A DNA stretch of 50,826 nucleotides from an uncultured bacterium. GTDB lineage: Bacteria > Patescibacteriota > Minisyncoccia > UBA6257 > 2-01-FULL-56-20. Made by a program: the position numbers and the translations under genes. Under the pieces are notes generated by a model, which had not been told where the DNA came from, searched no databases, and saw only the letters and a program-made list of their open reading frames with translations. Below, piece by piece: positions 1,011 through 44,300 of the stretch. The stretch spans positions 1 to 50,826 of the forward strand of contig CAWJQC010000002.1 in the NCBI GenBank assembly GCA_963844965.1, given 5' to 3'. How positions within the stretch are numbered: position 1 is the first letter of the stretch; each line of letters opens with the position of its first letter.

Positions 1011-1057
1011 AGCAATGTTGGCGTCGGCGTCGAACTTCGCCTTCTCGCCTTTCCTGC

Positions 1058-1124
1058 ACCACCTTTTCGGAAAAAGGTGGGGGTCAACCCCCACCTTTTC
1101 GCGCATCGCCCAAAAGGTGGGGGT
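1058..1124. repeat. Two G-rich hairpin repeats (CACCACCTTTTCGGAAAAAGGTGGGGG; CCCCCACCTTTTCGCGCATCGCCCAAAAGGTGGGGG), followed by a reverse copy of the conserved promoter block (revcomp GGGACGGTGTATAAC at ~1144-1158)
   Basis: Perfect inverted repeats read directly. Same family as at 3793-4259, 4587-4654 and 10377-10418. Confidence 0.6.
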
Positions 1125-3714: not shown

Positions 3715-3792
3715 GTTAACTATCGTACCCTAATTTGTATCCGTTTTTCAAATAAGCGCGCGGCAAGCGCCCGCGACGGCTTGGAAAAGATT

Positions 3793-3898
3793 GGGGGGTT
3801 GACCCCCACCTTTTCAGGAAAAAGTGGGAGGGTTGACCCCCGCCTTTTCGGAAAAAGTGGGAGGGTTGACCCCCACCTTTTCAGGAAAAAGATGGGGG
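3793..3898. repeat. Tandem array of three G-rich hairpins (unit ~37 bp: TTGACCCCCACCTTTTCAGGAAAAAGTGGGAGGG)
   Basis: Direct reading: three consecutive perfect or near-perfect inverted repeats, each separated by GTTGAC. Confidence 0.7.
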
Positions 3899-3927
3899 TT
3901 GACAAGAAATTGGGACGGGTGTATGAT
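3899..3927 (+). promoter_or_regulatory. Consensus promoter TTGACA-N17-TATGAT with conserved spacer block GGGACGGGTG
   Basis: ttgaca 3899-3904, tatgat 3922-3927. A paralogous block is at 4096-4125. Confidence 0.5.
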
Positions 3928-3993
3928 GCTCCCGTAAAAGTAAAGGCCGTTTGGTACGCAAAAAACAGCGAATAAACTCTAATTTCTCGGAAA

Positions 3994-4065: not shown

Positions 4066-4125
4066 GACCCCCACCTTTTTCAGAAAAGATGGGGGTTGAC
4101 ACCAGGACTGGGACGGGTGTATAAC
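4066..4125 (+). promoter_or_regulatory. G-rich hairpin (4066-4095), immediately followed by promoter TTGACA-N18-TATAAC (4096-4125)
   Basis: ccccaccttttt cag aaaagatggggg, then ttgacaccaggactgggacgggtgtataac. Same module as 3793-3927. Confidence 0.5.
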
Positions 4126-4174
4126 TCTAACTATTAAACACAAAAAGCAAAGGCCGGTTAGTGCCATAAATTCA

Positions 4175-4259
4175 CCCCCACCTTTTCGCGCATCGCGCAA
4201 AAGATGGGGGCAAAACAAATTCACCCCCACCTTTTCGCGCATCGCGCAAAAGATGGGGG
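4175..4259. repeat. Two long-stem hairpins (CCCCCACCTTTTCGCGCATCGCGCAAAAGATGGGGG), each preceded by AAATTCA
   Basis: Copies at 4175-4210 and 4224-4259. A third partial copy at 4264-4276 runs into the GIY-YIG start. Confidence 0.65.
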
Positions 4260-4282
4260 TCAGTCCCCACCTTTTAGGTCTT

Positions 4283-4543
4283 ATGTTCTATGTCTATATA
4301 CTGAAGAGCGCGAAAGATAAGAAATTGTATATAGGCTACACGAACAATCTTAAAAGGCGGATGGAAGAACATAAACAAAAGAAAGTTTTTTCAACTGCCT
4401 TGAGGAGCCCGCTTTCTCTTGCATACTACGAATCGTTTCGGTCACAGCAAGACGCTACGGCAAGAGAGAAGCAGTTGAAGCAGTTCAAGAGCGCATACGG
4501 TCAATTAAAAAAGCGCATCGTGAACAGCTTGCGTGAGGCCTAA
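4283..4543 (+). CDS. GIY-YIG nuclease-superfamily small protein (YhbQ/UPF0213-like)
   Basis: MFYVYILKSAKDKKLYIGYTNNLKRRMEEHKQ matches the GIY-YIG core (YVY..S....YIGYT.NL.RR..EH). A paralog is at 18509-18790. Confidence 0.75.
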   Translation: MFYVYILKSAKDKKLYIGYTNNLKRRMEEHKQKKVFSTALRSPLSLAYYESFRSQQDATAREKQLKQFKSAYGQLKKRIVNSLREA

Positions 4544-4586
4544 AAGGTTGGGGTAAACAAATAAATAAAAATTAAAAACAAATTCA

Positions 4587-4654
4587 CCCCCATCTTTTCA
4601 GAAAAAGGTGGGGGTCAATCCCCACCTTTTCGCGTATCGCGCAAAAGATGGGGG
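4587..4654. repeat. Two G-rich hairpins in the 5' leader of the giant surface-protein gene
   Basis: CCCCCATCTTTTCAGAAAAAGGTGGGGG (4587-4614) and CCCCACCTTTTCGCGTATCGCGCAAAAGATGGGGG (4620-4654). Confidence 0.6.
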
Positions 4655-10376: not shown

Positions 10377-10418
10377 AAAGCCCCCACCTTTTTCCGAAAA
10401 GGTGGGGGCTTGCTTTTT
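10377..10418 (+). terminator. Rho-independent terminator built from the G-rich hairpin family
   Basis: AAAAGCCCCCACCTTTTTCCGAAAAGGTGGGGGCTTGCTTTTT: GC-rich stem followed by a T-run, 34 nt after the stop at 10341-10343. Confidence 0.7.
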
Positions 10419-15174: not shown

Positions 15175-15537
15175 TTATTTTGCCAGCGATTTTATAAATC
15201 CCGCAAGGAGTTTGCCAACGTCGTCGCGCAAGCCGGAAATTTCTTTGTGCTCCATTTCGCTTACGTACTCCAATTGGCGCGATAAATCTATGTAGTATTC
15301 AAGTTCGTTTAAAGAGCCGCGTGCTATATAGTAAAATTGCAGTTTGCCTTTATCTGTTTTTCTGCCATAGCCCTCGACAATGTTTGCCGGTACAGAAATC
15401 ACGCACCTGCGTATCTGCGAAACGAGACCAAAAAGCTCTTCCTTGGGAAATTTTCTGGTAACTTTGTAAATCAATAAAACCAGCTCATTGGCTTTGGTAT
15501 AGACATTTAGATTTTTATAGCCGGCTATGTATGCCAT
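15175..15537 (-). CDS. Four-helix-bundle protein (TIGR02436 / 23S rRNA intervening-sequence protein family)
   Basis: YKKANELVLLIYKVTRKFPKEELFGLVSQIRRCVISVPANIVEGYGR matches this family. Confidence 0.75.
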   Translation of the reverse strand: MAYIAGYKNLNVYTKANELVLLIYKVTRKFPKEELFGLVSQIRRCVISVPANIVEGYGRKTDKGKLQFYYIARGSLNELEYYIDLSRQLEYVSEMEHKEISGLRDDVGKLLAGFIKSLAK

Positions 15538-18508: not shown

Positions 18509-18790
18509 TTAGTTTCGCCTCAGAAAGTTGCGCAATTGCAACTTGAGAAATCTGCGACCTTGGGTTGTTTTGAGATAATTTTCACGTCGTTTTGCATCAT
18601 CTTCGTTCTTGCATACTTCTGCATAGATAAAATCAAATGGTGCCCTTGGTGCCGTTGCGAAACTTTTTTTGGCATTATGTTCAGCGAATCGGCGCCCGAT
18701 GTTGGTTGTATATCCGATATAGAAATTGCCATCTTTTCTACTGCACAGCACATAAACATAATGCCAGTTCGAAATTCTCCTACTGGGCAT
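18509..18790 (-). CDS. GIY-YIG nuclease-superfamily small protein (paralog of 4283-4543)
   Basis: WHYVYVLCSRKDGNFYIGYTTNIGRRFAEHN. Confidence 0.75.
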   Translation of the reverse strand: MPSRRISNWHYVYVLCSRKDGNFYIGYTTNIGRRFAEHNAKKSFATAPRAPFDFIYAEVCKNEDDAKRRENYLKTTQGRRFLKLQLRNFLRRN

Positions 18791-18855: not shown

Positions 18856-20436
18856 TTAAAGGCGCGGGAGGGCTGGGGAAGGTTTTCTCCGGGGAGCCCC
18901 ATAAGCTCCTGAAGCGGGTTCAATTCCCGCCCCCGCAAATAAATGTGACCTATCTCCTGTAAACCCCCTGTTTAGCTCGAAGATGGGCGACAAAACAGCG
19001 GTTCCATACTTTCCGGTGGATTTATCAAAAATGATTCCACTCGGGAAGATTAACCTTTGGAATCGCTGTTTTTGTTCAACGTCCATGTCCTGCCACTGGC
19101 GAGCAGGGTCTCGCAGAAATTGAAAAGCGTAATCAAGGGACGCCTCGATGTTCAGTTCGTCGGTTTTGGTTTCGTTGTTCGATATTCTAATGCCTGCAAT
19201 CTGGTTTTCCAGGGATTCCTTAGTACCTAAAAACTCCTCTTTTGTTAGTTCGCCGTTTATCCGCATTTGCATAAGCCGTTCCTTTTTTGATTCCAGCAGC
19301 CGCAGTTCCTTTTCGTAGCCCTCTCCAGCGTTTTTAAGCTCGCCTTGCTGGTTTTGCCAGTTATCTATCACCACGGCCCTAAAAGCCGACAAAAACCCTT
19401 CTGTCGGCGTTACCTTGCGGAGTTTCTTAATAAATTCTTTTTCCAGCTCTTGTGCATCAATGCCCTGGTTTTTATGCTGGCAGCCTTCGTTATGGCACTC
19501 GTAATAGGCGTATTTCTTGTTTCTGCCGGTGTGCCAACTGCCGGTGAGTTTCCTACTACAAGGACACAGAACAAAGCGCCGCAAAGGAAAGTCGGGGTTT
19601 AATCGGAGGCGGGGGATATTCTTGATCCGCGAATAGTGGCTTTTTAGATATTGAATTTGCTCGTATTCCTCCGTGGCAATCATTGGCTGATGCAATCCCC
19701 TATATTCTTTACCCGTCCACGGATCAACCAAAATTCCGGCATAATACTTGTCCTTAAGTATTCTCTCGAAAAGTTGTTTAAACATCGGCTTGCCGGTCCT
19801 TGTTCTAAATCCCCACTGGTTCATTAGCTTGACTACTTCTTGCATCGAGCGGCCACCCTGTAAATAGGTTTTTAAGCCACGCTGGACGAGATCAAACCTT
19901 TCGGGGTCCGGCTCGTCCGGCCTTGTTTTCCTCCTGTCGCTTATTTTTTTGGCATGAATGTATCCGATGGGCGGTTGCCACGGCCAAATCCCCTCCATGA
20001 TTTTCCTTTGTAGACCGCCCTCGCAGCGCTGTTTTCTGATGTCATTCTCGAATTGAGCGTAACCGGCCAAAACCGCCTCGGTCATCTTGCCGATTGGATT
20101 GTCGCCAATTGGTTCGGTCACTGAGTGTAAGATTGTGCCGTATTTTACGAGCTGGGCTTGTAAGCCGTAATGGTCGGTTGTATTCCTTGCGAACCTATCT
20201 ATTTTCCAAACGATAAACGCTCCAATTTCTCCCTTATGTTCTCGGCAGTATTCCAGTGCTTTAATTAGTTCCGTTCTGTTAGCTGCCGTGGCCGATTCGC
20301 CCTTCTCAATAAAAATTTCGGTTATTTTGATACCTTTTTTTCCGGCGTATTCCAAGCAGGCCTGTTTTTGGTTATCCAGGCTTGTGCCGGAAACCTGCTC
20401 TTGACTTGATACGCGGCAATAAATGATTCCTTTCAT
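18856..20436 (-). CDS. Large serine recombinase (resolvase/invertase N-domain + recombinase domain + Zn ribbon)
   Basis: MKGIIYCRVSSQEQ catalytic-Ser region, FARNTTDHYGL, C-terminal CPCSRKL...YYECHNEGCQ zinc ribbon. Confidence 0.85.
   Translation of the reverse strand: MKGIIYCRVSSQEQVSGTSLDNQKQACLEYAGKKGIKITEIFIEKGESATAANRTELIKALEYCREHKGEIGAFIVWKIDRFARNTTDHYGLQAQLVKYGTILHSVTEPIGDNPIGKMTEAVLAGYAQFENDIRKQRCEGGLQRKIMEGIWPWQPPIGYIHAKKISDRRKTRPDEPDPERFDLVQRGLKTYLQGGRSMQEVVKLMNQWGFRTRTGKPMFKQLFERILKDKYYAGILVDPWTGKEYRGLHQPMIATEEYEQIQYLKSHYSRIKNIPRLRLNPDFPLRRFVLCPCSRKLTGSWHTGRNKKYAYYECHNEGCQHKNQGIDAQELEKEFIKKLRKVTPTEGFLSAFRAVVIDNWQNQQGELKNAGEGYEKELRLLESKKERLMQMRINGELTKEEFLGTKESLENQIAGIRISNNETKTDELNIEASLDYAFQFLRDPARQWQDMDVEQKQRFQRLIFPSGIIFDKSTGKYGTAVLSPIFELNRGFTGDRSHLFAGAGIEPASGAYGAPRRKPSPALPRL
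18873..18918 (+). other. tRNA-like 3' fragment (anticodon arm with CAT, 4-nt variable loop, T-arm, acceptor 3' strand). Probable attachment-site core.
   Basis: GGAGC-CCCATAA-GCTCC, TGAA, GCGGG-TTCAATT-CCCGC, CCCCGCA-A. No matching 5' acceptor strand or D-arm upstream. Confidence 0.4.
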
Positions 20437-21681: not shown

Positions 21682-21996
21682 TGCCCCTTTTGGGGCTGCT
21701 CCCCTTAAACAAAAAGAAAACAACCCCTATTTGGTTGTTTCCCGCTTGCGAGACGGTGGGTACTACTTTGTTGAGCTTTCCAGCCCAAGTTGAGCCTCTC
21801 GGCCCAAAACCCATTGGCTTAATCATTCCGAGCCTCCGCCAGTATTTAGTTATATAGTAATTATACCATACTTTGGATTAAAAAAGCAAGGGCGGTGTAT
21901 ATTTGAAAAATCTTCAAGATAGGGGGTAGAATGTAAGTACAACTCAATATCAGCGGCCTAAACCATTTGACAACGGGTGGCATGGCACAAAAATCC

Positions 21997-22095
21997 TCCT
22001 TCCAGATACCAAACACCACGTTTGGCCTACTTCTGGAAGGAGGTCGCCCCGAAAGGGTGCGGGTGCCGCAAGGCATCGGGTCGGCGTGGTGTTTT
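21997..22095 (+). promoter_or_regulatory. Candidate structured 5' leader / riboswitch-like element ending in a terminator-like hairpin
   Basis: Nested hairpin CTTCCAGA-T-ACCAAAC-ACCAC-GTTTGG-CCTAC-TTCTGGAAG (21997-22038). Long-range pairing AACACCACG (22009-22017) with CGTGGTGTT followed by TTTGTG (22083-22095). Candidate promoter TTGAAA-N18-TAGAAT at ~21905-21935. Confidence 0.3.
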
Positions 22096-23828: not shown

Positions 23829-24206
23829 TTACTTTTGATGGTTTTTTTCTCTAATCTTTCTCGCCATCCTTATGGCTTCTAAGAAAGTGAGGGATGGGTC
23901 GCTGTTTATGTTTAATTTCTCCGGCGGTTTAAATCCGGCTCTATCAAGTATGTCCCGCGAAGCATGAAGCCTCACGTTCTCGTTTTTTGCCTCCTGCGAT
24001 AACTTATAAACCATAGACGCGGCATCCTCCGCCTTCTCGTCTAAATACGCCCTAATCGCAGGTTTTCGTAGGTTCTCTGCCCCTATAGAGTGCGCCGTGT
24101 TGCGATTCTTGGGCTTATAGGCGCGACTGGCGGCTTCCGTGGCGTTTCCCGTCCCAAGATACTCATTAGCGAATTTTTGTTGCCTGAGCGTCATGTTATT
24201 TTTCAT
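23829..24206 (-). CDS. Phage terminase small-subunit-like protein (Terminase_2-type N-terminus)
   Basis: MTLRQQKFANEYLGTGNATEAASRAYKPKNRNTAHSIGAENLRKPAIRAYLDEK matches the TerS consensus LT.KQ..F..EYL...NAT.AA..AGYS.K.A...GS.LL..P.V..YI. Confidence 0.65.
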   Translation of the reverse strand: MKNNMTLRQQKFANEYLGTGNATEAASRAYKPKNRNTAHSIGAENLRKPAIRAYLDEKAEDAASMVYKLSQEAKNENVRLHASRDILDRAGFKPPEKLNINSDPSLTFLEAIRMARKIREKNHQK

Positions 24207-24299
24207 ATCACGATAAGACTATCTATGCCGGTGCGCAGGATACGACTGCCTGTTGTAATGCTTTCCACCCCTGCAATTCCCTCACAATTTGTTTCCAAT

Positions 24300-24780
24300 T
24301 GCGTAACACTTCCGCAAATGGCCCCAACTTTCTGTTTTTGAGAACCGGCGTCGTGAATGCTCCGGCGGCATTCGTGCGCCTGCATCTCGGCGGCAAAACT
24401 TTTGCTTTGCAAAAGACCAAGCTTTCGCCGCCTCCGATAGCTTCTCAAAAACAGAAAGTTTCCGCTGTAGGTTTTATTGTGTTTTGCCCTTGGCAAAACA
24501 GCAATTTAATTGAGGCGGGAATTGGACACGAAAGGGGGTCGGGGAAAAGTGCCAGGGTTTCCCCGTCGAGGTGACCGAGCGGAGCGAGCGAGTAGTGAAG
24601 TCTCCCGCCCCCGCAAATGGCTCCAGTTTTCGTTTCGCGAGGGTCGCGTCGTTTTCTGCTGAAAACGCGCTGCATCTCGTCGCCTTCGCTCCTGCGATAC
24701 ACCCTTGCGAAACGAAAACTTCCGCTGTGGTAGTAAGGTGTTTCGCTCGCGCGAAACGGCTTTATTATGGGCAGCCCCGG
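24300..24780. repeat. Non-coding region made of two diverged tandem ~290-bp units. Contains the right-hand att repeat and a copy of the GGGTCGGGGAAA..GTTTCCCC element family.
   Basis: Paired segments GCAAATGGCCCCAACTTTCTGTTTTTGAG (24309) / GCAAATGGCTCCAGTTTTCGTTTCGCGAG (24611), CGCCTGCATCTCGGCGGC / CGCGCTGCATCTCGTCGCC, GAAAGTTTCCGCTGTAGG / GAAAACTTCCGCTGTGGTAG. Confidence 0.4.
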
Positions 24781-24800
24781 TTTTTTGATAGAATAAACAC

Positions 24801-25512
24801 ATGACGAGAGAACAAGTTTTAGAGTTATTGAAACAAAATCTTTCTAACCGGAATCTGGTCAAACATTGTCTCGCGGTGGAGGCCGTGATGAGAGACCTTG
24901 GCCCGCCGTTTTGGGGAGGACGAAGAAAAGTGGGGGATGGCAGGGATATTGCACGACATTGATTACGAAAAAACGAAAGACAACCCAAGCCAGCATTCTT
25001 TGGTCGGAGCCCAGATGCTTGAAGATGCGGGGTTAGACAAGGAAATTTGCCAGGCGATAAGGGCTCATAACGCGACGCACGGAATTCCCTTGAATACGCC
25101 GATGGACAAGGCCTTATTCGTCGCAGATCCCATAACTGGTTTGATAGTGGCCGCCACTTTGGTCTTGCCCTCAAGAAGGATAGCTGATTTGACCGCCGAA
25201 AATGTTCTGAATCGTTTCCATGAGAAATCTTTTGCGAAAGGAGCGAACAGGGAAATAATCAAGCGATGCGAGGAACTTCTGGATATTAAGCTGGAAGAAT
25301 TCGCCGATATCAGCGTCAAGGCGATGCAGCGGTATCGGCGGCGAACTGGGACTTTGATTTCCATTAAAATTCTGATATTGCCGAGCCGAAAGCCGCAGCA
25401 AAGTTTCGGTGGTTTGTTTCGGTTGTATAGCGCTTCTGTTGCAAAAGAAAAGTCCGCCACAAGTGGCGGACAGAGTGGCGGACAGAGAGGCGAATCGCTT
25501 TTCGTTAAGTAA
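24801..25512 (+). CDS. HD-domain phosphohydrolase (HDIG-type) with an apparent 1-nt frameshift near 24893
   Basis: Frame 1: MTREQVLELLKQNLSNRNLVKHCLAVEAVMRDL. Frame 3: ARRFGEDEEKWGMAGILHDIDYEKT...: HD motif split across frames. Confidence 0.65.
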
Positions 25513-25904: not shown

Positions 25905-26522
25905 TTGGAAGGAGGCGGTATGCTCACGCCCACGCAATTTTTTGGGGCCGACTTATTCTCACGGCTTTGCAGAAAAAAATGGTCAACACGAAGTCGCCTA
26001 ATGTTTGATCTCGGCGCCGTCTTGCCGGATCTGCCGATGATACTCGCCGGTTTTTATGAACTGCTTAAATACTGTGCCCTGCACCCGCGAGTTTTGAGTT
26101 TTCATTTAATAGGACACCGCGCTTTTTATCTGCTCGTGAAGAATGAGCACCCGCCGCTCTTTAACGCCTTGTCAACTGGAATCGGGTACCATCAGGTCGC
26201 GTGGTTCGTGACGCAAGCTCTTCACACCTATTTTTTCTGGATTATGTTTTATCTGTTCTGCCGAATGCTCTTACCGGAGTTCAAGAACCTGGCGTTGCTC
26301 GTCGCCGGCGCCGTATTTTTCCATGTGACGGTTGACATGTTCACGCATTCCTCGGCCATCTACGCATACTTTTGGCCACTTGTTACTCGCCGCATCCCCG
26401 GGTTTGTTTCGCCGGCCACGCCCTGGTTTTTGAAATTGGAGTTCGCGATTTGTGCGATATGGATATTTACGGAGCTCGTCACGGCGTATCGCCACTTCAA
26501 ACGGAGAAACACCGGAACATAA
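25905..26522 (+). CDS. DUF457-like membrane-bound metal-dependent hydrolase family protein (paralog at 33376-33960)
   Basis: Polytopic membrane ORF with conserved His residues (HLIGH, HVTVDMFTH). Start uncertain (25905, 25920 or 26001). Confidence 0.45.
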   Translation: MEGGGMLTPTQFFGADLFSRLCRKKWSTRSRLMFDLGAVLPDLPMILAGFYELLKYCALHPRVLSFHLIGHRAFYLLVKNEHPPLFNALSTGIGYHQVAWFVTQALHTYFFWIMFYLFCRMLLPEFKNLALLVAGAVFFHVTVDMFTHSSAIYAYFWPLVTRRIPGFVSPATPWFLKLEFAICAIWIFTELVTAYRHFKRRNTGT

Positions 26523-26719
26523 AAAGCGACCCCAAAGCCCTGGGGCCGCTATTTATTTGATTGGAAAAATATTTTAGGCGCTCTATCTCTCTTGGGACCA
26601 TGATTGTGTAAAGCGAGATTTTGTGGTAAAAATTATTTAAGCCGGCGTAGCTCCCCGAGGCAAAACCTTCGGTTTGCAACGGGGCAGGCAGGGCAAGCGT
26701 TTCACCCGCCCAAATTTCT

Positions 26720-26906
26720 GGCTGGATAGCTCAGCGGTAGAGCAGACGTTTTTCACCCGCCCACCTTTTATGCCAGGGTAGCTCAGCGGCAGAGCAGACG
26801 TTTCATAAGCGTCGGGTCGTGGGTTCGACTCCCACCCCTGGCACTAAGCAAAAAGGTGGGCGGGCAAGTAAGCGTCGGGTCGTGGGTTCGACTCCCACTC
26901 CAGCCA
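26720..26906 (+). tRNA. Split/interrupted tRNA gene: exon 1 is 26720-26755, exon 2 is 26871-26906, and a 115-nt intervening sequence contains a whole second tRNA
   Basis: GGCTGGA-TA-GCTC-AGCGGTA-GAGC-A-GACGT-TTTTCA ... A-GCGTC-GGGTC-GTGGG-TTCGACT-CCCAC-TCCAGCC-A. Acceptor and anticodon stems pair perfectly across the interruption. Confidence 0.5.
26772..26843 (+). tRNA. tRNA with anticodon CAT (elongator Met or Ile2-lysidine type; G1-C72 paired, so not initiator-like)
   Basis: GCCAGGG-TA-GCTC-AGCGGCA-GAGC-A-GACGT-TTCATAA-GCGTC-GGGTC-GTGGG-TTCGACT-CCCAC-CCCTGGC-A: canonical cloverleaf, no encoded CCA. Confidence 0.85.
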
Positions 26907-26948
26907 CAATTTGGGATCCGAGTCGAAACCATTTGCTATAATCTTTTT

Positions 26949-27506
26949 ATGATTGGTAGAAAAATGCTCATCCCGCTCGCCCGCGACTTTGCCCTTAAGG
27001 CGCATAAGAAACTTATAACGACAACAGTGGGCGGTCTTAAGCGTCCGAATATTTTACATCTCCAGGAAGTTGCTGACCTCGTATGGGCTTCGGGTGGCAC
27101 CGATGAAGAAATTGCGGCTGCCTGGCTTCATGATACCGTTGAAGATACTCCCACTACGCTCACAATTATTGGAAAAAGGTTTGGCAGCAGAGTATCTCGC
27201 GTTGTAGCTGGCCTCACGGATACTAAAGGATTAAACAATCTGCCGCTTTTCGAACGTAAAAGGTACCAAGCCGCACGCCTTAAAAATGAAAATACGAGCG
27301 TACGCCGCATAAAAATAGCTGACCAAATTTCTAATATTCACTCGTTGGGACTGGATCCTACTAACACCATGACACCTGCCGAATGCAGGGATTATATTGA
27401 AGGGGCAAGGTCGATTGCCTGTATGTGTCGAAGTATTAGCCCCCTTCTAGATAGATTGTTTCTCGAGGTTTATAAAAAGGGAAGAGCACGTTATCGCTCG
27501 GCCTAA
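26949..27506 (+). CDS. Small HD-domain protein of the RelA/SpoT ppGpp-hydrolase (Mesh1-like) type
   Basis: LARDFALKAHKK..., AAAWLHDTVEDTPTTLTIIGKRFGSRVSRVVAGLTD matches the HD region of SpoT-type hydrolases. Start moved to MIGRKM to clear the tRNA. Confidence 0.6.
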   Translation: MIGRKMLIPLARDFALKAHKKLITTTVGGLKRPNILHLQEVADLVWASGGTDEEIAAAWLHDTVEDTPTTLTIIGKRFGSRVSRVVAGLTDTKGLNNLPLFERKRYQAARLKNENTSVRRIKIADQISNIHSLGLDPTNTMTPAECRDYIEGARSIACMCRSISPLLDRLFLEVYKKGRARYRSA

Positions 27507-27542
27507 GCAATAACTCGGTTAGCACCCTTCCGATTTTCATTA

Positions 27543-28163
27543 TTGTTCGAACATCGTCCCATCCTGCTCAACATGGAGAAAGACATAAATTCTCTCCGGC
27601 ACGATATCGTATTCAACGCCACCCTGCGCGGGCAGGCGTTCACGTTCCACAGCACGTGGGGGCTTTTCAGTCCGACGGAAATTGACGAAGGCAGCCGCCT
27701 GCTTCTGGAGAATCTGGAAATCCAGCCGGACGATGTCTGCCTGGATATCGGCTGCGGCTACGGAGCGCTCGGCGTGCCTATCGCCAAATTTTCGCCGCGG
27801 GGAAGAGTTCATATGGTGGACAAGGATTTCATCGCCGTGGAATATGCGAAGAAAAACGCCGCTGCAAACGGCGTCAAAAACTGCGAAATTTATTTGAGCA
27901 ATGGGTTCAGCGCCGTGCCGAAGGAACAGAAGTTTGATTTAATCGTTTCCAATCTTCCGGCGAAAACCGGAAAAGAGTTGTTTTGGATATTACTTGAAGA
28001 TGCGCGGAAGCATTTGGCTTCCGGCGGCAGGATTTATGTCGTGACCATTTCCGGCTTGCGCGAATTTATCAGACGCAATTTTCAGGAATTTTTCGGGAAT
28101 TACGAAAAGGTGAAGCAGGGGAGAAGCTACACGGTGGCGAGGGCCACAAACTTCCTTTCTTGA
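27543..28163 (+). CDS. Class I SAM-dependent methyltransferase (RsmC/small-MTase family)
   Basis: VCLDIGCGYGALGV (motif I), DLIVSNLP (motif IV). Confidence 0.7.
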   Translation: MFEHRPILLNMEKDINSLRHDIVFNATLRGQAFTFHSTWGLFSPTEIDEGSRLLLENLEIQPDDVCLDIGCGYGALGVPIAKFSPRGRVHMVDKDFIAVEYAKKNAAANGVKNCEIYLSNGFSAVPKEQKFDLIVSNLPAKTGKELFWILLEDARKHLASGGRIYVVTISGLREFIRRNFQEFFGNYEKVKQGRSYTVARATNFLS

Positions 28164-29344: not shown

Positions 29345-29385
29345 AGTTGAGAAGTTTTGAAGTTTAGAAGTTAAAAATTATTTAA

Positions 29386-29571
29386 ATGGCGACAGGATTG
29401 TCTAATTTAAAAATATATCAAATGTCAGAAGATTTAGAGTTACGGGTTTTTGAACTGACAAAATTATTTCCGAAAGACGAAAAATATAGAAGTGTTGACC
29501 AGCTTCGTAGGTCGGCATCATCTGTAACAAATAATATCGCCGAGGCCCATCAAACTTCCAAACTACGATGA
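29386..29571 (+). pseudogene. Truncated four-helix-bundle protein gene fragment (61 aa), stop overlapping the pheT start
   Basis: IYQMSEDLELRVFELTKLFPKDEKYRSVDQLRRSASSVTNNIAEAHQ is the N-terminal half of the family seen intact at 15175-15537. Preceded by GAAGTT-type oligo repeats at 29340-29380. Confidence 0.5.
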
Positions 29572-31608
29572 AGTTTTCCTATTCGTTAATCAAAAAACTT
29601 CTGCCGGGGGCGCCGTCAAAAGCGCGGCTGATTGACGGTCTCAGCATGCATTCTTTTGAAACGGAGGACGCCGGAGGCGATATTCTGGAAATTTCTTTGC
29701 CGGCGAACCGCTGGTCGGACGCGGCATCGCACATAGGCATCGCGCGCGAAGTGGCGGCAGTTTTCAGCCTCAAATTCAAAAATCCGGTGAAGCTTATGGT
29801 GAATTATCCGGCCGAGAAGGGTCTTGTTTCCGTGGATGTGAAGGACGCGAAACTTTGTCCGCGCTATTCGGCACGCTATTTTGAACTGCAGAAACTCGGC
29901 GATTCGCCGAAGTGGATGCGCGATACTCTTATCTCCTGCGGTTTGCAGCCGATAAACAGCATCGTGGATATTATGAACTACGTTATGCTGGAAACCGGTC
30001 AGCCGTTACATGCGTTTGACGCGGATAAATTGGTGCCAAGTACCAAGCGTCAAGCGTCAAGGAAGAAGCGGAAATTGACTGCGGGAATTGTCGTCCGAAG
30101 AGCGGCGAAAGAGGAAAAAATGACGACACTTGACGGCCAGCATCTGGTTTTGGACCAAAGTGTGCTTGTTATCGCCTCAAGCCCGGCGGCCGGCGGATTG
30201 CCGCTCGCGGTCGCGGGCATAAAAGGAGGCCAAGGTCCGGCCGTGGGGCCGAAGACCAAAAGAATCGTCGTGGAAGCAGCGAGTTTCAATGCGGCGTCTG
30301 TCTATAGAGCGGCGCGCAAGCTCAACTTGCCGACGGACGCTGCCCAACGTTTCGGCCACGGCTTGAGTCCGGCGCTCGTGGAGATCGGCTTGGACCGCGC
30401 GACCGAACTTTTGCTCAAGAACAAGGCCTGGCTCCTGGATTCCGTGGATGTCTACCCCCGGCCGGTCGGCGATGAGGTCATTGAATTTGACGCGCGGAAG
30501 TATGAATCCGTCATCGGCGGGAAGGTTGACGAAAAAAAGGCGCGGAAATATTTTGAACTTCTGGGGTTTGAGTTGGAAGAGCCGAAATCTAAAACCATCG
30601 GCCAGAAATTATTGGTCAGGATCCCGTCTTGGCGCACCGACATAGAAGAGCCGGAGGACTTGATTGAGGAGATAATCCGCCTTGAGGGATACGGAAAACT
30701 GAAGCCGAGGCCGCCGCTCGTAAGTTTGTTACCCGCGCGTGAAGAAGATACGGTCATATTTAAAGACAAGGTCCGCAGAGTACTTCATGGTTATCGATTG
30801 GATGAGGTTTACAATTCATCCTTCCTCGGCGATGCCGACCTTGCGATGGCGGAATCAGCGGGCTTCGGCGGCGCGCGTTCGGCGCTAATTGAAGTGGAAA
30901 ATCCCATTGCCGACGACAAAAAATATTTGCGGCCCAGTTTGCTACCGCTTCTCGTGAAGAATATCGGAGACAATGCGCGATTTTTCGGCGAGATGGGAAT
31001 TTTTGAAATAGGAAAAATTTTTGAGGAGTCGCCGGGAAAAACGCCGGTGGAAAAATTGTCGCTTGGCGTCGCGCTTGCCGGGAAAAAAGAGCCGAAGCTG
31101 ATTTTGGAGCTCAAGGGACTCGCGGAAGATGTGCTTCGCGGTCTCGGCGTGGACGATTTTTCAATCATTGAACGGGGCGCGGCTTTGCGCGTTGAGGCGG
31201 ACCACAAGGTTTTGGGAATTATGCGTCAGGCAGATTCTCGGAAGGGGATGGATTGCCGCCCTCGGCGAGTTTGATCTGGAAAAAGTTTTGGAATTTACGG
31301 AGGAAGAGAAAGAATTCATAGCACCCAAAAGATTCCCGTCGGTAATGCGCGACATTTCCGTTTTGGCAAGCCGTGACACGCGCATCGGCGAAATTTTGGA
31401 GGAGATAGAGGACGCTTCCCCGAAATTCCTTGAGAATGTTGACTTGATCGACGAATATGTTGACGAACGGTTCGCGGGTAAACAGAGCATTACCTTCCGC
31501 ATCGTGTTTCAGGCCGACGACAGGACGCTTACCGATACAGAAGTGAACGCCGCGATGGAAAAAATTTCCGTGGCTCTCAAGAAAAGATTTGGTGCGGAGA
31601 TAAGGTAG
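29568..31608 (+). CDS. pheT: Phenylalanine--tRNA ligase beta subunit (short form), with an apparent frameshift near 31235
   Basis: MKFSYSLIKKLLPG N-terminus, B3/4 and B5 regions. C-terminal FDX-ACB domain (EFDLEKVLEFTEEE...RIVFQADDRTLTDTEVNAAMEKI) is in the +1 frame (ORF 31129-31608). Confidence 0.85.
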
Positions 31609-41371: not shown

Positions 41372-44300
41372 TTGGCGCGTTTGATTTTTTTGAATTTCGT
41401 CCCGGCAATTTTTGGCATGCCTAAATTTTTACCGGTTAAAAATTTTGCAAAATCAAAAACGCTCCTCGCGCCGTTCAATTTGAACGAGACGCAGCTCAAA
41501 TCATATGAGTGGTTCCTGAAAAAGGGACTGCGCGAGCTTTTGGATGAAATTTCTCCGATATACGACCATACCGGCAAGGAATTGGAATTGAATTTCAAAA
41601 ATTATCATTTTGACGAGCCGAAATACGACGAAGCGACTGCGCGCTATAAAGACGCCACCTATGAAGCGGCGTTGCGCGTTGAATTGGAGTTGATCTACAA
41701 AAGGACCAATCGCAAAGAGAAACAAGAGGTGTACTTCGGCGACTTTCCGGTAATGACCTCGCGCGGCACGTTCATAATAAACGGTGTGGAACGCGTCGTT
41801 GTTTCGCAGCTCATCCGTTCGGCAGGAGTTTATTTCACCTCCGTCCCCTGGCGCGGCAGGCAGCTTTTCGGCGCGAAGATAATTCCCAACCGCGGCGCTT
41901 GGCTTGAATTTGAGACCGATGTTGACGGCGGGATAGGCGTGAAGATTGACCGCCACAGGAAAGTCGCCGTCACCGAACTTCTTCGGATCTTCGGCGCGTC
42001 CAACGATGACATAGGTTCCAGATTTTCCGACATTGACCGCGGACAGGTCAAACACATTGAAGCGACTCTCAAGAAAGACGTGGCGAAAGACGCCGATGAA
42101 TCGTACATGGAGATTTACAGGCGTCTTCGGCCCGGCGATCCAGCCACGCCGGCTACGGCCAAAAGTTTGATAGACGCCATGTTCCAGCGGGCGGACCGTT
42201 ATGATCTTTCCACGGTCGGTCGCTTCAAGGTAAATCAGCGCCTGAATTTTGATAAGAGCAAAGAGAACCGGCTTTTGGACTCGGAGGATATTATTGCGAT
42301 TGTTCGGGAAATTATTTCTTTAAATAACAATCCGCGGGCGCAGGCGGACGACATTGACCACCTCGGGAACCGCCGTCTGAAGGCCGTGGGAGAACTTTTG
42401 CAGGGTCGTTTGCGCATCGGTCTCGCCCGTCTCCGCCGCATTATCCAAGACCGCATTTCCACGGAGGATAAGGAGAAAGTCATGCCGGCGCAGCTCGTGA
42501 ATTTCCGTCCGGTCTCCGCCGTAATTAAAGAATTTTTCGCATCCTCCCAGCTTTCGCAGTTCATGGACCAGGTGAATCCCTTAGCTGAGCTTGAACACAA
42601 GCGAAGGATCTCCGCTTTGGGACCGGGCGGGCTTACGAGAGAGCGCGCGAGCTTTGAGGTCCGCGACGTCCATAGATCGCATTACGGCAGAATTTGTCCG
42701 GTTCAAACGCCTGAAGGCGCGAATATCGGTCTCATAAACTACCTTGCGAGTTTCACGAGAATCAATGATTTCGGATTTCTGGAGACGCCATACATAAAAG
42801 TAGTTGACGGCGGGGTTACAGGCGATGTTGTTTGGCTGGACGGTCTTGAAGAGGAGAAATACAGGATTACCCATGCCGGTACGCCTCGCGACGCCGATGG
42901 CAAACTGCAGGGTTCCGTCGTGGAGGCGAGAATTTACGGCCAGCCTGGAACTTGCACGCCGAGCGAGGTTGATTTGATCGACGTGGCGCCCAATCAGTTT
43001 GTGAGCGTGGCGACATCCCTTATACCGTTTCTCCAACACGATGACGCGAACAGGGCTCTTATGGGTTCTAACATGCAGCGGCAGGCCGTTGTTTCCGTGC
43101 GGCCCGACGTTCCCTATGTCTCTACGGGGGACGAGGAGAAGGTTGCTATTGATTCCGGTTATGTCATCGTGGCAGAGGGTGATGGCAAAATAGCGGAAGT
43201 GGACGCCAATCACATTAAGGTTAAGTATGCGAGAACCACCAAGGATTACGTTTTGGAGAAATTTAAGCGTTCCAATCAATTTACTTGCATTTCGCAGCGG
43301 CCGCTTGTCGGGAAGGACCAGCCCATCAAGAAGGGCGATATTCTCGTGGACGGGCCGTCAATAGAGAACGGGACGCTTGCTTTGGGACAGAATCTTCTCG
43401 TGGCGTTTGTTTCATGGGACGGCGCGAACTTTGAGGACGCCATCGTGGTTTCCGAGCGGATCGTGCGGGACGACCTGTTCACGTCGATACACATAGAAGA
43501 TTTTTATCATGACGTGCGCGACACGAAGCTTGGCCCGGAAATAACGACCCCCGATATTCCCAACGTTTCCGAGGAAAAACTTAAGAACTTGGATGAGGAA
43601 GGGATTGTAAGAATCGGTGCCGAGGTGAAATCCGGCGATATTCTCGTCGGCAAAATTTCTCCCAAAGGCGAAGCCGAACTCACTTCCGAGGAGCGTCTTT
43701 TGCGGGCGATCTTCGGCGAGAAAGCGCGCGACGTGAAAGACACTTCTCTTACATTGCCCCACGGAAAACGCGGCAGGGTCGTGAGTATAAAAGTTTTTGA
43801 CAGAGAGAGGGGAGATAAGCTCGAGCCCGGCATAATAAAAAGGATTCAGGTTGAGGTCGCGCAGCTACGGAAAGTTCAGGCCGGGGACAAATTGGCCGGA
43901 CGTCACGGGAACAAAGGCGTAATTTCGCAGGTGCGCGCGATTGAAGATATGCCGTACTTAGAGGATGGAACTCCGGTGGACATAGTTTTGAATCCTTTGG
44001 GCGTCGCTTCGCGCATGAACCTCGGGCAGATTTTTGAAACACATCTCGGTTGGGCGGCGTCCAAACTTGGCTACCGTGCCGTGACTCCGGGGCTTGACTC
44101 GGCGAGCGAGGGAGATATCAAGGAGGAACTCAAGAAAGCCGGCCTTCCCGAGGACGGCAAAGTGACGCTTTTTGACGGCAGAACCGGCAAGCCATTTGAT
44201 AATAAGGTCATGGTCGGCCAGATTTACATGATGAAGCTCAATCACCTAGTTGAGGACAAGGCGCACATGCGCTCCATCGGTCCCTATTCTTTAATCACGC

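What the first reader, a model, noticed from the sequence alone, without database searches (positions are those of the whole stretch)
26690..26910. Complete tRNA(CAT) gene nested inside the anticodon loop of a second, split tRNA gene
What the sequence shows: 26720-26755 (GGCTGGA TA GCTC AGCGGTA GAGC A GACGT TTTTCA) is a clean tRNA 5' half. 26871-26906 (A GCGTC GGGTC GTGGG TTCGACT CCCAC TCCAGCC A) is a clean tRNA 3' half. The acceptor strands GGCTGGA/TCCAGCC and the anticodon-stem halves GACGT/GCGTC pair perfectly, so the two pieces belong to one tRNA. Between them lie 115 nt (26756-26870). They consist of a 14-bp inverted repeat CCCGCCCACCTTTT / AAAAGGTGGGCGGG (26756-26769, 26851-26864) bracketing a complete canonical 72-nt tRNA with anticodon CAT (26772-26843). 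The two tRNAs are ~90% identical outside the acceptor stem. With the canonical 37/38 intron position the outer tRNA would have loop TTTTCAA (anticodon TTC); other junctions would give other anticodons. A further copy of the left inverted-repeat arm (TTCACCCGCCCA, 26701-26712) lies just upstream. Established knowledge: the only introns known in bacterial tRNA genes are group I introns of 200 nt or more. Nested or split tRNAs are archaeal/nanoarchaeal phenomena that need the BHB endonuclease. Inference, reading (a): RNase P/Z processing of the inner tRNA excises the insert and leaves two halves that can re-anneal through the 14-bp inverted repeat plus the acceptor stem, giving a split or trans-assembled tRNA. 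Inference, reading (b): a tRNA gene was inactivated by hairpin-mediated insertion of a paralogous tRNA. The inverted repeat belongs to the same G-rich hairpin family used as terminators elsewhere in the window.
Basis: partly seen in the sequence, partly recalled or inferred. Interest (0 to 1): 0.8.

Follow-up and report, generated by a model that had tools for sequence, protein, structure and literature searches.

The report
tRNA-Met gene nested inside dead tRNA-Met
In this candidate-phyla (Patescibacteria) genome, a working methionine-type tRNA gene flanked by a perfect 14-bp palindrome sits exactly inside the anticodon of the older resident copy of the same gene, splitting it into two halves that are most likely dead remnants, not a functional split tRNA.

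Summary
A canonical tRNA(CAT) at 26772-26843 lies between two pieces (26720-26755, 26869-26906) that together make a second tRNA. A 14/14 inverted repeat brackets the inner gene.

The functional interpretation is not supported. The outer gene is not Glu(TTC). It is the resident tRNA-Met(CAT): 69/72 identical to an intact Colwellbacteria tRNA and broken between anticodon bases A35 and T36. Eight relatives carry one uninterrupted tRNA-Met, six of them just upstream of pheS as here. In the closest relative (L011) the slot is collinear on both sides and the tRNA has the outer-type acceptor stem.

The bracketing palindrome belongs to a lineage-specific repeat family of terminator-like hairpins (31 arms in the contig against about 2 expected). 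A third, older 5' remnant upstream ends at the same TTTCA|CCCGCCCA junction, so the locus records serial in-place replacement.

There is no bulge-helix-bulge motif, no group I intron core, and no conservation of the interrupted state.

Best reading (about 0.65): a palindrome-flanked replacement tRNA-Met cassette was inserted into the resident gene and uses its promoter. How it was inserted is unresolved. The structure is known from a single metagenome-assembled contig. Interest is moderate.

The parts
26604..26633 (+). Promoter-like element (-35 TTGTGT 26604-09, 17-nt spacer, -10 TAAAAAT 26627-33) placed so that transcription would start at about 26640, the first base of the oldest remnant
   Evidence: Read from the sequence. 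The consensus scan did not flag it. Similar TAAAAAT/CAAAAT boxes lie 7-9 nt upstream of tRNA +1 in L011, L013 and L015, and upstream of the remnant in L010. Inference.
26641..26704 (+). Layer 1 ('unit 1'): decayed 5' half of an older tRNA-Met (acceptor GCCGGCG, D stem GCTC, about 30-nt insert in the D loop, then GGCAGGGCAAGCGTTTCA), ending after CA of the anticodon
   Evidence: D4, D5. Alignment to the 5' half of the intact L015 tRNA-Met scores 30.5 against 12.2 +/- 3.7 for shuffles, 0/500. It is homologous to the element upstream of the L010 tRNA (42 against 16.7 +/- 4.6, 0/500). blastn-short hit to the L009 tRNA, E = 0.013.
26705..26719 (+). Leader of the outer tRNA (CCCGCCCAAATTTCT). Homologous to the left arm of the inner cassette. 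CCCAAATT (26709-16) pairs with 26908-15.
   Evidence: D3 16/18; I3; 8/8 complementarity.
26720..26755 (+). Layer 2: 5' half of the resident ('outer') tRNA-Met(CAT), running from the acceptor GGCTGGA to C34 A35, with two extra T in the loop
   Evidence: Joined to 26869-26906 and without the TT it is 69/72 identical to the intact Colwellbacteria tRNA(CAT), and ARAGORN then calls it Met(cat).
26756..26769 (+). Left arm of the palindrome bracketing the inner tRNA (CCCGCCCACCTTTT), a variant of the contig-wide repeat arm CCCCCACCTTTT
   Evidence: I2, 14/14; family census.
26772..26843 (+). Layer 3: intact, presumably functional tRNA(CAT) (acceptor GCCAGGG/CCCTGGC, no encoded CCA)
   Evidence: ARAGORN; Rfam RF00005, 66.6 bits, E = 2e-12. 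The acceptor type matches the intact L009 tRNA at the same locus.
26851..26864 (+). Right arm of the palindrome (AAAAGGTGGGCGGG)
   Evidence: (I2).
26865..26868 (+). CAAG: the last 4 nt of the insert. It would be the tetraloop if the insert were circularised into tRNA + AAAAGGTGGGCGGG-CAAG-CCCGCCCACCTTTT, a terminator-like hairpin.
   Evidence: Sequence. Analogy with family hairpins that have TCAA/TTGA/TCAG tetraloops. Inference.
26869..26906 (+). 3' half of the resident (outer) tRNA-Met, running from T36 to the discriminator A; acceptor strand TCCAGCC
   Evidence: (D1, 92% over 39 nt).
26908..26915 (+). AATTTGGG, the right partner of the outer tRNA's leader (a truncated right arm of the older cassette)
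   Evidence: (I3).
26920..26931 (+). GAGTCGAAACCA, complementary to the T arm of the outer 3' half (26883-26894) and followed by a T-rich tract. Possible terminator for the tRNA transcript.
   Evidence: I5, 12 nt, 92%. L010 has an analogous complement to its own T arm. Function is inferred.
1056..1123 (.). Array of the same palindromic repeat family
3785..3898 (.). Array of the same palindromic repeat family
4068..4095 (.). Hairpin of the same palindromic repeat family
4175..4275 (.). Array of the same family. Stand-alone left arms are preceded by AAATTCA. The last arm brackets the GIY-YIG ORF together with 4542-4553.
4542..4654 (.). Array of the same palindromic repeat family
10381..10408 (.). 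Family hairpin followed by a T-run, in terminator position after the gene ending at 10343

Best explanation
The locus is the conserved tRNA-Met(CAT) slot upstream of the MTase-pheS-pheT genes, and the gene there has been replaced in place.

A 113-nt cassette lies between A35 and T36 of the resident tRNA-Met gene. It has no target-site duplication. It consists of a left palindrome arm, AT, a complete tRNA-Met of a different acceptor-stem type, CTAAGCA, a right palindrome arm, and CAAG.

The inner gene is the functional one. It is transcribed from the old promoter upstream of the remnants and released by ordinary 5' and 3' tRNA processing (RNase P and RNase Z or exonucleases, then CCA addition). 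The two outer halves are recently inactivated pseudogene pieces that now act as leader and trailer. An older 5' remnant further upstream ends at the same junction, which shows the process has happened before at this locus.

- **Shown:** the architecture; the identity of the outer gene as the resident Met gene; the intact state in relatives; the membership of the arms in a repeat family; the nested, not tandem, pairing logic.
- **Inferred:** that the outer halves have no function; the direction of events; the transcription and processing route.
- **Unresolved:** the insertion mechanism. Three candidates remain. One is transposition-like insertion of a palindrome-flanked cassette 3' of TTCA. Another is site-specific recombination between two palindromes. 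The third is homing-like copying by homologous recombination, using the tRNA halves as flanking homology.
For: 1. The outer gene is the resident Met gene.
   - Joined at 35/36 it is 69/72 identical to an intact Colwellbacteria tRNA(CAT).
   - The closest relative, L011, has MTase 81% identical, PheS 74% identical and a homologous upstream membrane protein. It has a single intact tRNA-Met with acceptor GGCTGGG in exactly this slot.
2. All three stacked acceptor types exist as single intact genes at this locus in relatives:
   - GGCTGG(G/A) in L011 and Colwellbacteria;
   - G(T/C)CAGGG in L009;
   - GCCGGCG in L015/L016.
3. Half-fragments are found only in the window.
4. The structure is nested, not tandem.
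   - Acceptor and leader/trailer complementarity is strictly concentric.
   - Six of the seven inner/outer differences are compensated acceptor changes (P about 3e-4), while the other 58 nt differ once. That fits an imported allele, not divergence after a duplication.
5. The arms are members of a lineage-specific palindromic family. There are 31 arms against about 1.9 expected, and none in 8 relative loci.
   - Stand-alone left arms elsewhere are also preceded by TTCA.
   - The same arms bracket another small cargo, a GIY-YIG ORF.
6. The older layer (unit 1) has the same TTTCA|CCCGCCCA junction and is decayed, with no 3' partner detectable at significance.
7. Only the inner gene is recognised by ARAGORN, including in intron mode, and by Rfam.
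Against: - The structure is seen in one contig of one metagenome-assembled genome. No second genome with the cassette was found, so mobility is not demonstrated and reads could not be inspected.
- All stems of the outer halves are still intact and their bodies are almost unmutated. That is compatible with very recent inactivation, but also with selection on the halves.
- Leader/trailer complementarity covaries between the two layers, which could mean a selected processing stem and not only a palindromic-element origin.
- No transposase, HUH enzyme or integrase is adjacent. The only recombinase, a large serine recombinase, lies 6.3 kb upstream.
- The extra TT is unexplained. It could be slippage, or an assembly indel like the pheT frameshift.
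- Unit 1 is conserved between the window and L010, so it may have a leader function rather than being pure debris.
Confidence: 0.65

Rival explanations
1. Functional split or intron-containing tRNA. The primary transcript is processed so that the inner tRNA is released. The two outer halves are then either spliced or held together by the 14-bp helix plus the acceptor and anticodon stems, giving a second working tRNA (Glu-UUC or Met-CAU).
For: The halves pair perfectly (acceptor 7/7, anticodon stem 5/5), and a GC-rich complementary pair abuts them, formally like the Nanoarchaeum half-genes. With the 37/38 junction ARAGORN reads a canonical tRNA-Glu(ttc). Without the TT, a 35/36 junction gives a canonical Met(cat). 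All outer stems are intact.
Against: - There is no bulge-helix-bulge: the junction is a 4x5 internal loop between a 7-bp and a 14-bp helix.
- There is no group I core and the insert is only 113-115 nt.
- No splicing endonuclease or RtcB was found among about 45 ORFs scanned.
- The body and synteny say the outer gene is tRNA-Met, duplicated in function by the inner gene.
- A trans-annealed two-piece molecule would have no anticodon loop.
- Relatives have an intact single gene.
- The older layer has decayed.
Confidence: 0.04
2. Two local tandem duplications without any imported DNA. A 52-nt unit (leader + 5' half, 26700-26751 / 26752-26803) arose by slippage between the CGTTTCA repeats. A 63-nt unit (3' half + trailer, 26806-26868 / 26869-26931) arose by slippage at TAAGC repeats. 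The middle copies then co-evolved as the functional gene.
For: Direct repeats with these periods exist (D1, D3, D4). Short direct repeats (CGTTTCA; TAAGC at 26806, 26845 and 26869) sit at the boundaries. This reading explains the GACGTTT|TTCACCC junction without invoking a TT insertion.
Against: - It needs at least 3 compensated base-pair changes in the acceptor, plus compensated changes in the leader/trailer helix of the functional copy. Meanwhile about 100 nt of supposedly neutral outer sequence changed at one position only.
- It does not explain why the outer leader and the outer trailer remain complementary to each other and not to the inner ones.
- The trailer parts of the 63-nt 'repeat' are barely alignable.
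- The inner acceptor type exists as a separate allele in relative L009.
Confidence: 0.1
3. Scars of integrase-mediated integration and loss of larger mobile elements at a tRNA attachment site. Elements crossing over in the anticodon loop left partial tRNA copies, and later deletions collapsed the elements to a few nucleotides. The elements might include the degraded prophage that carries the large serine recombinase upstream.
For: - tRNA genes, and specifically the anticodon loop, are classic integration sites, and integration leaves partial tRNA copies (PMC9897764).
- A large serine recombinase, a terminase small subunit and an ORF-poor stretch lie 2-8 kb upstream.
- The HD_4 gene just downstream is itself an insertion relative to L011.
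- A CA dinucleotide is present at both junctions, and the circularised arms would form a perfect palindrome around CA, as serine-recombinase sites do.
Against: [quoted passage not shown] Here both halves of one gene flank a complete second gene within 113 nt, and no element lies between them.
- The recombinase is outside the repeats, and no matching att-like repeat was found elsewhere in the contig.
- The CA-crossover reading needs two extra 2-nt indels (TT and AG).
- A hybrid tRNA (host 5' half + element 3' half) is expected, but inner and outer are each self-consistent.
Confidence: 0.08
4. Assembly artefact. The nested arrangement was produced by a metagenome assembler joining two strain variants of the tRNA locus through their shared 13-30-nt identical stretches.
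For: The contig is a MAG contig with no other copy in the collections. It carries a frameshift in the essential gene pheT, so small errors may exist. Contigs of relatives often break at tRNA genes (L001, L012).
Against: - The junction sequences (TTCA|CCCGCCCACCTTTTAT and GGGCGGGCAAG|TAAG) belong to neither tRNA, so they cannot arise from a path switch between two tRNA alleles.
- The arms are a bona fide repeat family of this genome.
- An independent older layer with the same junction lies upstream.
- The contig is collinear with L011 on both sides of the locus.
Confidence: 0.07

Closest known systems
tRNA gene fragments left by integrating mobile elements (att-site partial duplications; PMC9897764 and, from my own knowledge, Williams 2002 on anticodon-loop, T-loop and 3'-end sublocations)
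   Same: Partial tRNA copies lie next to an intact tRNA gene. The break is in the anticodon loop. The locus is a hot spot surrounded by inserted genes. The intact copy keeps the function while the fragments decay.
   Different: Here both halves of one gene flank a complete second gene at 16 and 25 nt distance. There is no kilobase element and no integrase between the repeats. The functional gene is not a host/element hybrid. The flanks are a 14-bp palindrome from a dispersed repeat family.
Archaeal split and intron-containing tRNA genes (Nanoarchaeum half-genes, bulge-helix-bulge introns; PMC4033280, PMC3218864)
   Same: The 5' and 3' halves are each adjoined by mutually complementary GC-rich sequence. 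Formally a canonical tRNA results if the right junction is chosen.
   Different: No bulge-helix-bulge. A bacterial genome with no splicing endonuclease seen. The break is at 35/36 and not 37/38. The 'intron' contains a complete redundant tRNA. The interrupted state is not conserved in any relative.
Group I introns in anticodon loops of Patescibacteria tRNA genes, enriched at position 35/36 (PMC13011429)
   Same: Same phylum, same loop, and the same unusual 35/36 position. The last base of the insert is G.
   Different: The insert is 113-115 nt against 200 nt or more. There is no match to the group I model even at E <= 10. Base -1 is A, not U. In that paper tRNA-Met introns sit at 33/34. The insert is mostly a tRNA cloverleaf.
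REP/REPIN/BIME elements and MITE-like palindromic repeats of bacteria (PMC3184786 for an overview)
   Same: The arms are a multi-copy, intergenic, GC-rich palindromic family. They occur in alternating-orientation clusters, double as terminator-like hairpins, and stand-alone left arms have a conserved 4-nt 5' flank (TTCA).
   Different: No RAYT/Y1 transposase is visible in the 50 kb. Here the arms bracket cargo (a tRNA gene, a GIY-YIG ORF) instead of a short loop. Mobility is not shown.
Homing of introns and free-standing homing-endonuclease cassettes
   Same: An insertion sits at one precise site of a conserved gene, flanked by 'exon' homology that would allow copying into uninterrupted alleles. 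GIY-YIG nuclease genes are present in the contig, one of them bracketed by the same arms.
   Different: The insert is not spliced out. It compensates by carrying a replacement gene. No link between the GIY-YIG proteins and this site was shown.

Membership tests
Canonical bacterial tRNA gene (inner gene) | Cloverleaf with conserved D and T arm features, scoring above the curated threshold | tested here: met
   Rfam RF00005, 66.6 bits against a gathering score of 29, full length 1-71. ARAGORN calls Met(cat).
Canonical bacterial tRNA gene (outer gene, in place) | Recognised as a tRNA, with or without an intron, by standard finders | tested here: not met
   Not called by ARAGORN in default or intron mode (-i0,400), and not called by Rfam at E <= 10. 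It is called only after artificial joining.
Archaeal-type spliced or split tRNA | Bulge-helix-bulge motif (3-nt bulge, 4-bp helix, 3-nt bulge) at the exon-intron junctions | tested here: not met
   The predicted structure has a 7-bp extended anticodon stem, a 4x5-nt internal loop (UUCA / CAAGU), then the 14-bp helix.
Archaeal-type spliced or split tRNA | Splicing endonuclease (EndA) and RNA ligase (RtcB) encoded by the organism | tested here: inconclusive
   None was found among about 45 ORFs of the contig scanned against Pfam. The rest of the genome is not available.
Archaeal-type spliced or split tRNA | The joined product has a 7-nt loop and an anticodon that fits the tRNA body | tested here: not met
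   The homologous junction 35/36 gives a 9-nt loop as assembled. The TTC(Glu) loop needs an arbitrary 37/38 junction and contradicts the Met-type body (69/72 to a tRNA-Met).
Archaeal-type spliced or split tRNA | Interrupted state conserved in related genomes | tested here: not met
   Eight distinct relatives have a single uninterrupted gene.
Group I intron in a tRNA anticodon loop | Group I catalytic core detectable; length about 200 nt or more | tested here: not met
   No Intron_gpI match at E <= 10 in 26500-27000. The insert is 113-115 nt, of which 72 nt are a tRNA.
Group I intron in a tRNA anticodon loop | U at the last exon position and G at the last intron position (PMC13011429) | tested here: not met
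   At the homologous junction the 5' exon ends in A35. The last insert base is G. A U(-1) junction is possible only by shifting 2 nt, which would give a UUU anticodon.
Integrase att-site tRNA fragment | One complete and one partial tRNA copy as direct repeats at the two ends of an integrated element that carries an integrase | tested here: not met
   The direct repeats are 52 and 63 nt apart with no element between them. The only recombinase is 6.3 kb upstream, outside the repeats. No further copy of the tRNA or the arms lies near it.
REP/REPIN-like palindromic repeat family (the arms) | Many dispersed intergenic copies of a short palindrome | tested here: met
   31 arm matches against about 1.9 expected, in 7 clusters; sequences.
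REP/REPIN-like palindromic repeat family (the arms) | Cognate Y1/HUH transposase (RAYT) in the genome | tested here: inconclusive
   Not found in the contig. The rest of the genome was not available.
Transposable element / MITE | Target-site duplication, or filled against empty sites at more than one locus | tested here: inconclusive
   There is no target-site duplication: TTCA|...CAAG|TAAG. One empty-site comparison exists, the intact orthologous tRNAs. No second insertion site of the tRNA cassette was found.

The most novel reading that the evidence does not exclude
A self-compensating 'tRNA replacement cassette'. This would be a palindrome-flanked tRNA-Met gene that inserts, or is copied by homing-like recombination through the flanking tRNA halves, precisely after TTCA in the anticodon loop of the resident tRNA-Met gene. 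It kills the resident gene, supplies its own copy, and takes over the resident promoter. The stacked layers (unit 1 > outer > inner) would then record successive sweeps of such cassettes through a Patescibacteria lineage, and would explain the mosaic distribution of acceptor-stem types among relatives.
Probability: 0.2. Interest if true: 0.8.

Novelty: new variant of a known kind. Interest (0 to 1): 0.5.

Why it matters
If the nested arrangement is real, it shows a way for an essential single-copy tRNA gene to be exchanged without ever being lost. The newcomer lands inside the old gene and inherits its promoter, and the old halves decay as leader and trailer.

That bears on three things:
- how tRNA alleles move horizontally in the very small genomes of Patescibacteria;
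- why tRNA halves can appear in bacterial genomes with no archaeal-type splicing involved;
- annotation, because half-genes like these can be misread as split or intron-containing tRNAs.

It also points to a palindromic repeat family that can bracket cargo (a tRNA gene, a GIY-YIG nuclease gene). That family would be worth examining as a possible mobile unit. The practical significance is modest unless more examples are found.

Tried and rejected
1. **Group I intron.** No model match, too short, wrong -1 base. The 35/36 coincidence with PMC13011429 is noted but rejected.
2. **Bulge-helix-bulge splicing.** The junction structure does not fit.
3. **tRNA-Glu(TTC) identity of the outer gene.** Rejected on homology (69/72 to tRNA-Met) and synteny. 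The TTC loop is an artefact of the chosen junction.
4. **Orthologous loci through the downstream HD_4 gene.** Synteny is not conserved. This showed instead that HD_4 is itself an insertion.
5. **Exact look-ups of window proteins.** Not on record.
6. **Collection scans.** The GTDB and JGI scans with the shared 27-30-nt 3' core returned only one Colwellbacteria species. Four viral scans found nothing. So no second copy of the cassette was found, and the phage-borne idea has no support.
7. **Att-like repeats.** None link the tRNA locus to the serine-recombinase region, only chance-level 11-14-mers.
8. **A decayed 3' partner of the oldest layer just before the MTase start (27535-27572).** Suggestive by eye, not significant (p about 0.05-0.13).
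9. **The exact arm CCCGCCCACC as a repeat family.** Not enriched. The family became visible only with the shorter core CCCACCTTT.
10. **Similarity between the junction and a stretch inside the HD_4 coding region (27016-27045).** Judged coincidental, because it lies within the HD_4 coding sequence.
11. **TIGR arrays (PMC12045711) as an explanation for the repeat arrays.** The variable parts are only 3-12-nt loops and no Nop-domain protein was seen. Not pursued.
Full report
**What is there.** The window is an entire 50,826-bp contig of a Patescibacteria (CPR) metagenome-assembled genome. Its HD-domain and PheS proteins are the only members of their clusters. Their nearest homologues, at most 75% identical, are labelled Minisyncoccia, Paceibacterota, Nomurabacteria and similar.

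The sequence at 26640-26931 reads as follows:
- a tRNA-like 5' remnant (26641-26704);
- CCCGCCCAAATTTCT;
- the 5' half of a tRNA (26720-26755, GGCTGGA...GACGTTTTTCA);
- CCCGCCCACCTTTT-AT;
- a complete tRNA (26772-26843);
- CTAAGCA-AAAAGGTGGGCGGG-CAAG;
- the 3' half of the split tRNA (26869-26906, TAAGCGTC...TCCAGCCA);
- CA-AATTTGGG.

ARAGORN and Rfam call only the inner gene: Met/cat, 66.6 bits. The repeat finder confirms the 14/14 inverted repeat and the half-gene homologies, 92% over 39 nt and 86% over 37 nt. It also finds an extra inverted repeat around the outer gene and a further copy of TTTCACCCGCCCA upstream. The whole stretch folds as a cloverleaf within a cloverleaf, -104.4 kcal/mol, z = -7.5.

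**Identity of the outer gene.** Homology says otherwise. Joining the halves where similarity to the inner gene ends (after A35, before T36) and dropping two extra T gives a sequence 69/72 identical to an intact tRNA(CAT) of a Colwellbacteria MAG. That MAG was the only GTDB hit to the shared 30-nt core.

ARAGORN calls this reconstruction Met(cat). If the TT is kept, the loop has 9 nt. Only the hand-picked 37/38 junction gives 'Glu(ttc)'. Inner and outer differ at seven positions. Six are compensated acceptor-stem changes, and the remaining 58 nt differ once. Neither is an initiator: there is no 1:72 mismatch and no three consecutive G-C pairs in the anticodon stem (sequence, plus established knowledge). 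Whether they are elongator Met or Ile2(CAU) cannot be decided with these tools.

**Relatives.** The downstream HD_4 gene is not syntenic in relatives, but PheS is.
- The closest relative, L011, has MTase 81% identical, PheS 74% identical, and a homologous upstream membrane protein (E = 2e-13). Its gene order is membrane protein, terminator, promoter, one intact tRNA-Met (acceptor GGCTGGG), then the MTase start codon 2 nt later, pheS, pheT. The outer gene is therefore the resident orthologue, and the contig is collinear with a relative on both sides of the locus.
- Other relatives also have one uninterrupted tRNA-Met upstream of pheS, with other acceptor types. L009 has GTCAGGG, one pair from the inner gene. 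L010 and L013/14 have GCCAGCG. L015/16 have GCCGGCG.
- A short-word BLAST of all these tRNAs against all 18 fetched loci finds half-fragments only in the window.

**A third layer.** The stretch 26641-26704 starts GCCGGCGTAGCTC and ends GGCAGGGCAAGCGTTTCA. This matches the 5' half of the L015-type tRNA-Met with a roughly 30-nt insert in the D loop (score 30.5 against 12.2 +/- 3.7, 0/500 shuffles). It ends after CA of the anticodon and is followed by CCCGCCCA, the same junction as the outer half (D3).

It is also homologous to an element upstream of the intact tRNA in L010 (42 against 16.7 +/- 4.6, 0/500), so this layer is old. A promoter-like -35/-10 pair precedes it. In relatives the corresponding box sits directly before the tRNA (by eye). 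I could not demonstrate a 3' partner for this layer. A candidate just before the MTase start is not significant.

**The palindrome.** The exact 10-mer of the arm is not repeated, but its core is. CCCCCACCTTTT and its complement occur 31 times (up to 2 mismatches) against about 1.9 expected. The copies lie in clusters at 1.06, 3.8, 4.07, 4.2, 4.6 and 10.4 kb, and are absent from eight relative loci.

Arms alternate in orientation. One pairing, AAAA-GGTGGGGG-TCAA/TTGA-CCCCCACC-TTTT, is a textbook bidirectional intrinsic terminator. Stand-alone left arms elsewhere are preceded by (AAA)TTCA, as at both tRNA junctions. One right arm is followed by CAAAAC, compared with CAAG here. A GIY-YIG ORF (4283-4543; Pfam E = 4e-17) is bracketed by a pair of arms just as the tRNA is. 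If the 113-nt insert is circularised, it reads 'tRNA gene followed by a family hairpin with tetraloop CAAG', opened between the loop and the 3' arm.

**Nested or tandem.** The 5' side can also be read as a 52-nt tandem repeat and the 3' side as a 63-nt repeat. Three things argue against that origin.
- Complementarity is strictly concentric. Inner 5' pairs with inner 3' (7/7) and outer with outer (7/7, including a unique A7:T66 pair). Leader 1 pairs with trailer 1 (14/14) and leader 0 with trailer 0 (8/8). Cross combinations pair poorly.
- A duplication origin would require many compensated changes in the functional copy while about 100 nt of neutral outer sequence stayed almost unchanged.
- The inner acceptor type exists as a separate allele in L009.

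I therefore favour insertion of an imported or allelic cassette.

**What it is not.**
- It is not a group I intron. There is no model hit at E <= 10, the insert is 113-115 nt, and the -1 base is A. Position 35/36 is, curiously, the Patescibacteria-enriched intron site of PMC13011429, where tRNA-Met introns sit at 33/34.
- It is not a bulge-helix-bulge intron.
- It is not a classical att scar. Those leave one full and one partial copy at the ends of a kilobase element (PMC9897764). Here no element lies between the copies, and no repeat links the locus to the large serine recombinase (18856-20436) or the terminase remnant upstream.
- No Y1/HUH transposase, EndA or RtcB was seen in about 45 ORFs.
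- No phage contig carries the repeat or this tRNA type.

**Most likely working.** *Shown:* the resident tRNA-Met gene is split at 35/36 by a palindrome-flanked complete tRNA-Met gene. Relatives have the uninterrupted gene. An older remnant with the same junction precedes it.

*Inferred:* transcription starts at the old promoter and runs through the remnants. RNase P and 3' processing release the inner tRNA, and CCA is added because none is encoded. The outer halves are by-products. After processing they could remain paired, but they would lack an anticodon loop.

*Unresolved:* the insertion mechanism. There are three candidates.
- The blunt, duplication-free junctions TTCA|...CAAG| resemble insertion 3' of a tetranucleotide by single-strand (HUH-type) elements.
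- A CA dinucleotide at both junctions and the palindromic joint resemble a serine-recombinase crossover, but that needs two extra indels.
- Once one nested copy exists, its tRNA halves give homology for homing-like copying into any intact tRNA-Met gene. That would explain the identical position in both layers without a site-specific enzyme.

**Caveats.** This is a single MAG contig, and reads could not be checked. The contig has a frameshift in pheT, so the TT in the T-run may be an error. No second instance of the cassette was found in the GTDB or JGI scans. The literature searches found no precedent for a complete tRNA gene nested in the anticodon loop of its own homologue in bacteria. The library is limited, so this is absence of evidence only.

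**Verdict.** The functional split-tRNA reading is unlikely (about 0.04). The insertional-replacement reading is favoured (about 0.65). The mechanism is open. The finding is an unusual variant of tRNA-gene disruption and replacement, and of moderate interest. It would be considerably more interesting if further nested cassettes show it to be a self-compensating mobile tRNA unit (about 0.2).

Noticed in passing
window 1056-1123, 3785-3898, 4068-4095, 4175-4275, 4542-4654, 10381-10408: A lineage-specific palindromic repeat family (arm CCCCCACCTTTT) in alternating-orientation arrays. There are 31 arms against about 2 expected, and none in relatives' loci. The copies double as bidirectional terminator-like hairpins.
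   Followed up: partly
window 4283-4543 (+) and 18509-18790 (-): Two small GIY-YIG nuclease genes (Pfam E about 1e-17). The first is precisely bracketed by a pair of the palindromic arms (4264-4275 / 4542-4553), like the inner tRNA.
   Followed up: partly
window ~3895-3960 and ~4092-4165: Two copies of a promoter-like unit (GGGGGTTGACA, 17 nt, TATGAT/TATAAC), each followed by a similar AAAGGCCG...-containing stretch and set between the repeat arrays. They could be small RNA genes.
   Followed up: no
window 18856-20436 (-), 23829-24206 (-), 24200-24900: A large serine recombinase, a terminase small subunit and an ORF-poor stretch lie between the Mur ligase gene and the tRNA locus. This looks like a degraded prophage or integrated element. 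In relative L015 the same interval holds three unrelated genes.
   Followed up: partly
window 21955-22077 (+): LOOT RNA motif (Rfam RF03000, 74.1 bits against a threshold of 46.4) inside the putative element remnant.
   Followed up: no
window 26937-27506: The HD_4 gene (26949-27506) is an insertion between the tRNA and the MTase gene. In L011 the MTase start codon follows the tRNA by 2 nt. A TATAAT box ends 7 nt before the HD_4 start codon, suggesting a leaderless mRNA. The closest HD_4 homologue (L001) also follows a tRNA 3' end, from a different tRNA.
   Followed up: partly
window 29372-29571: A truncated 23S-rRNA-intervening-sequence-protein gene is inserted between pheS and pheT; these genes are adjacent in relatives. 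It is preceded by the 14-nt TAAAAATTATTTAA that also precedes the tRNA locus (26627-26640). A full-length paralogue lies at 15175-15537 (-).
   Followed up: no
window ~31222-31247: pheT is frameshifted: tblastn with L011 PheT moves from frame 3 to frame 1. This is either a real disruption or a small assembly indel. It is a caution for any 1-2-nt feature of this contig.
   Followed up: partly
L010 3783-3871 and 3995-4006; window 26920-26931: L010 has an element upstream of its intact tRNA-Met that is homologous to the window's oldest remnant. Downstream it has a 12-nt perfect complement to its own T arm. The window has the analogous complement (11/12) to the T arm of the outer 3' half. The complement covaries with the T-arm sequence, so it may be a conserved terminator or attenuator.
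   Followed up: partly
L007 6993-7578 (Colwellbacteria): The tRNA most similar to the outer gene (69/72) lies in a different context (initiator tRNA, tRNA-Met, tRNA-Asp cluster) in a different lineage. The closest genome by proteins (L011) has a much more divergent tRNA body. This hints at horizontal exchange of tRNA-Met alleles.
   Followed up: no
window 41372-48175: A single 2267-aa ORF whose N-terminal part carries all the RNA polymerase beta-subunit domains. It appears to be an rpoB-rpoC fusion.
   Followed up: no
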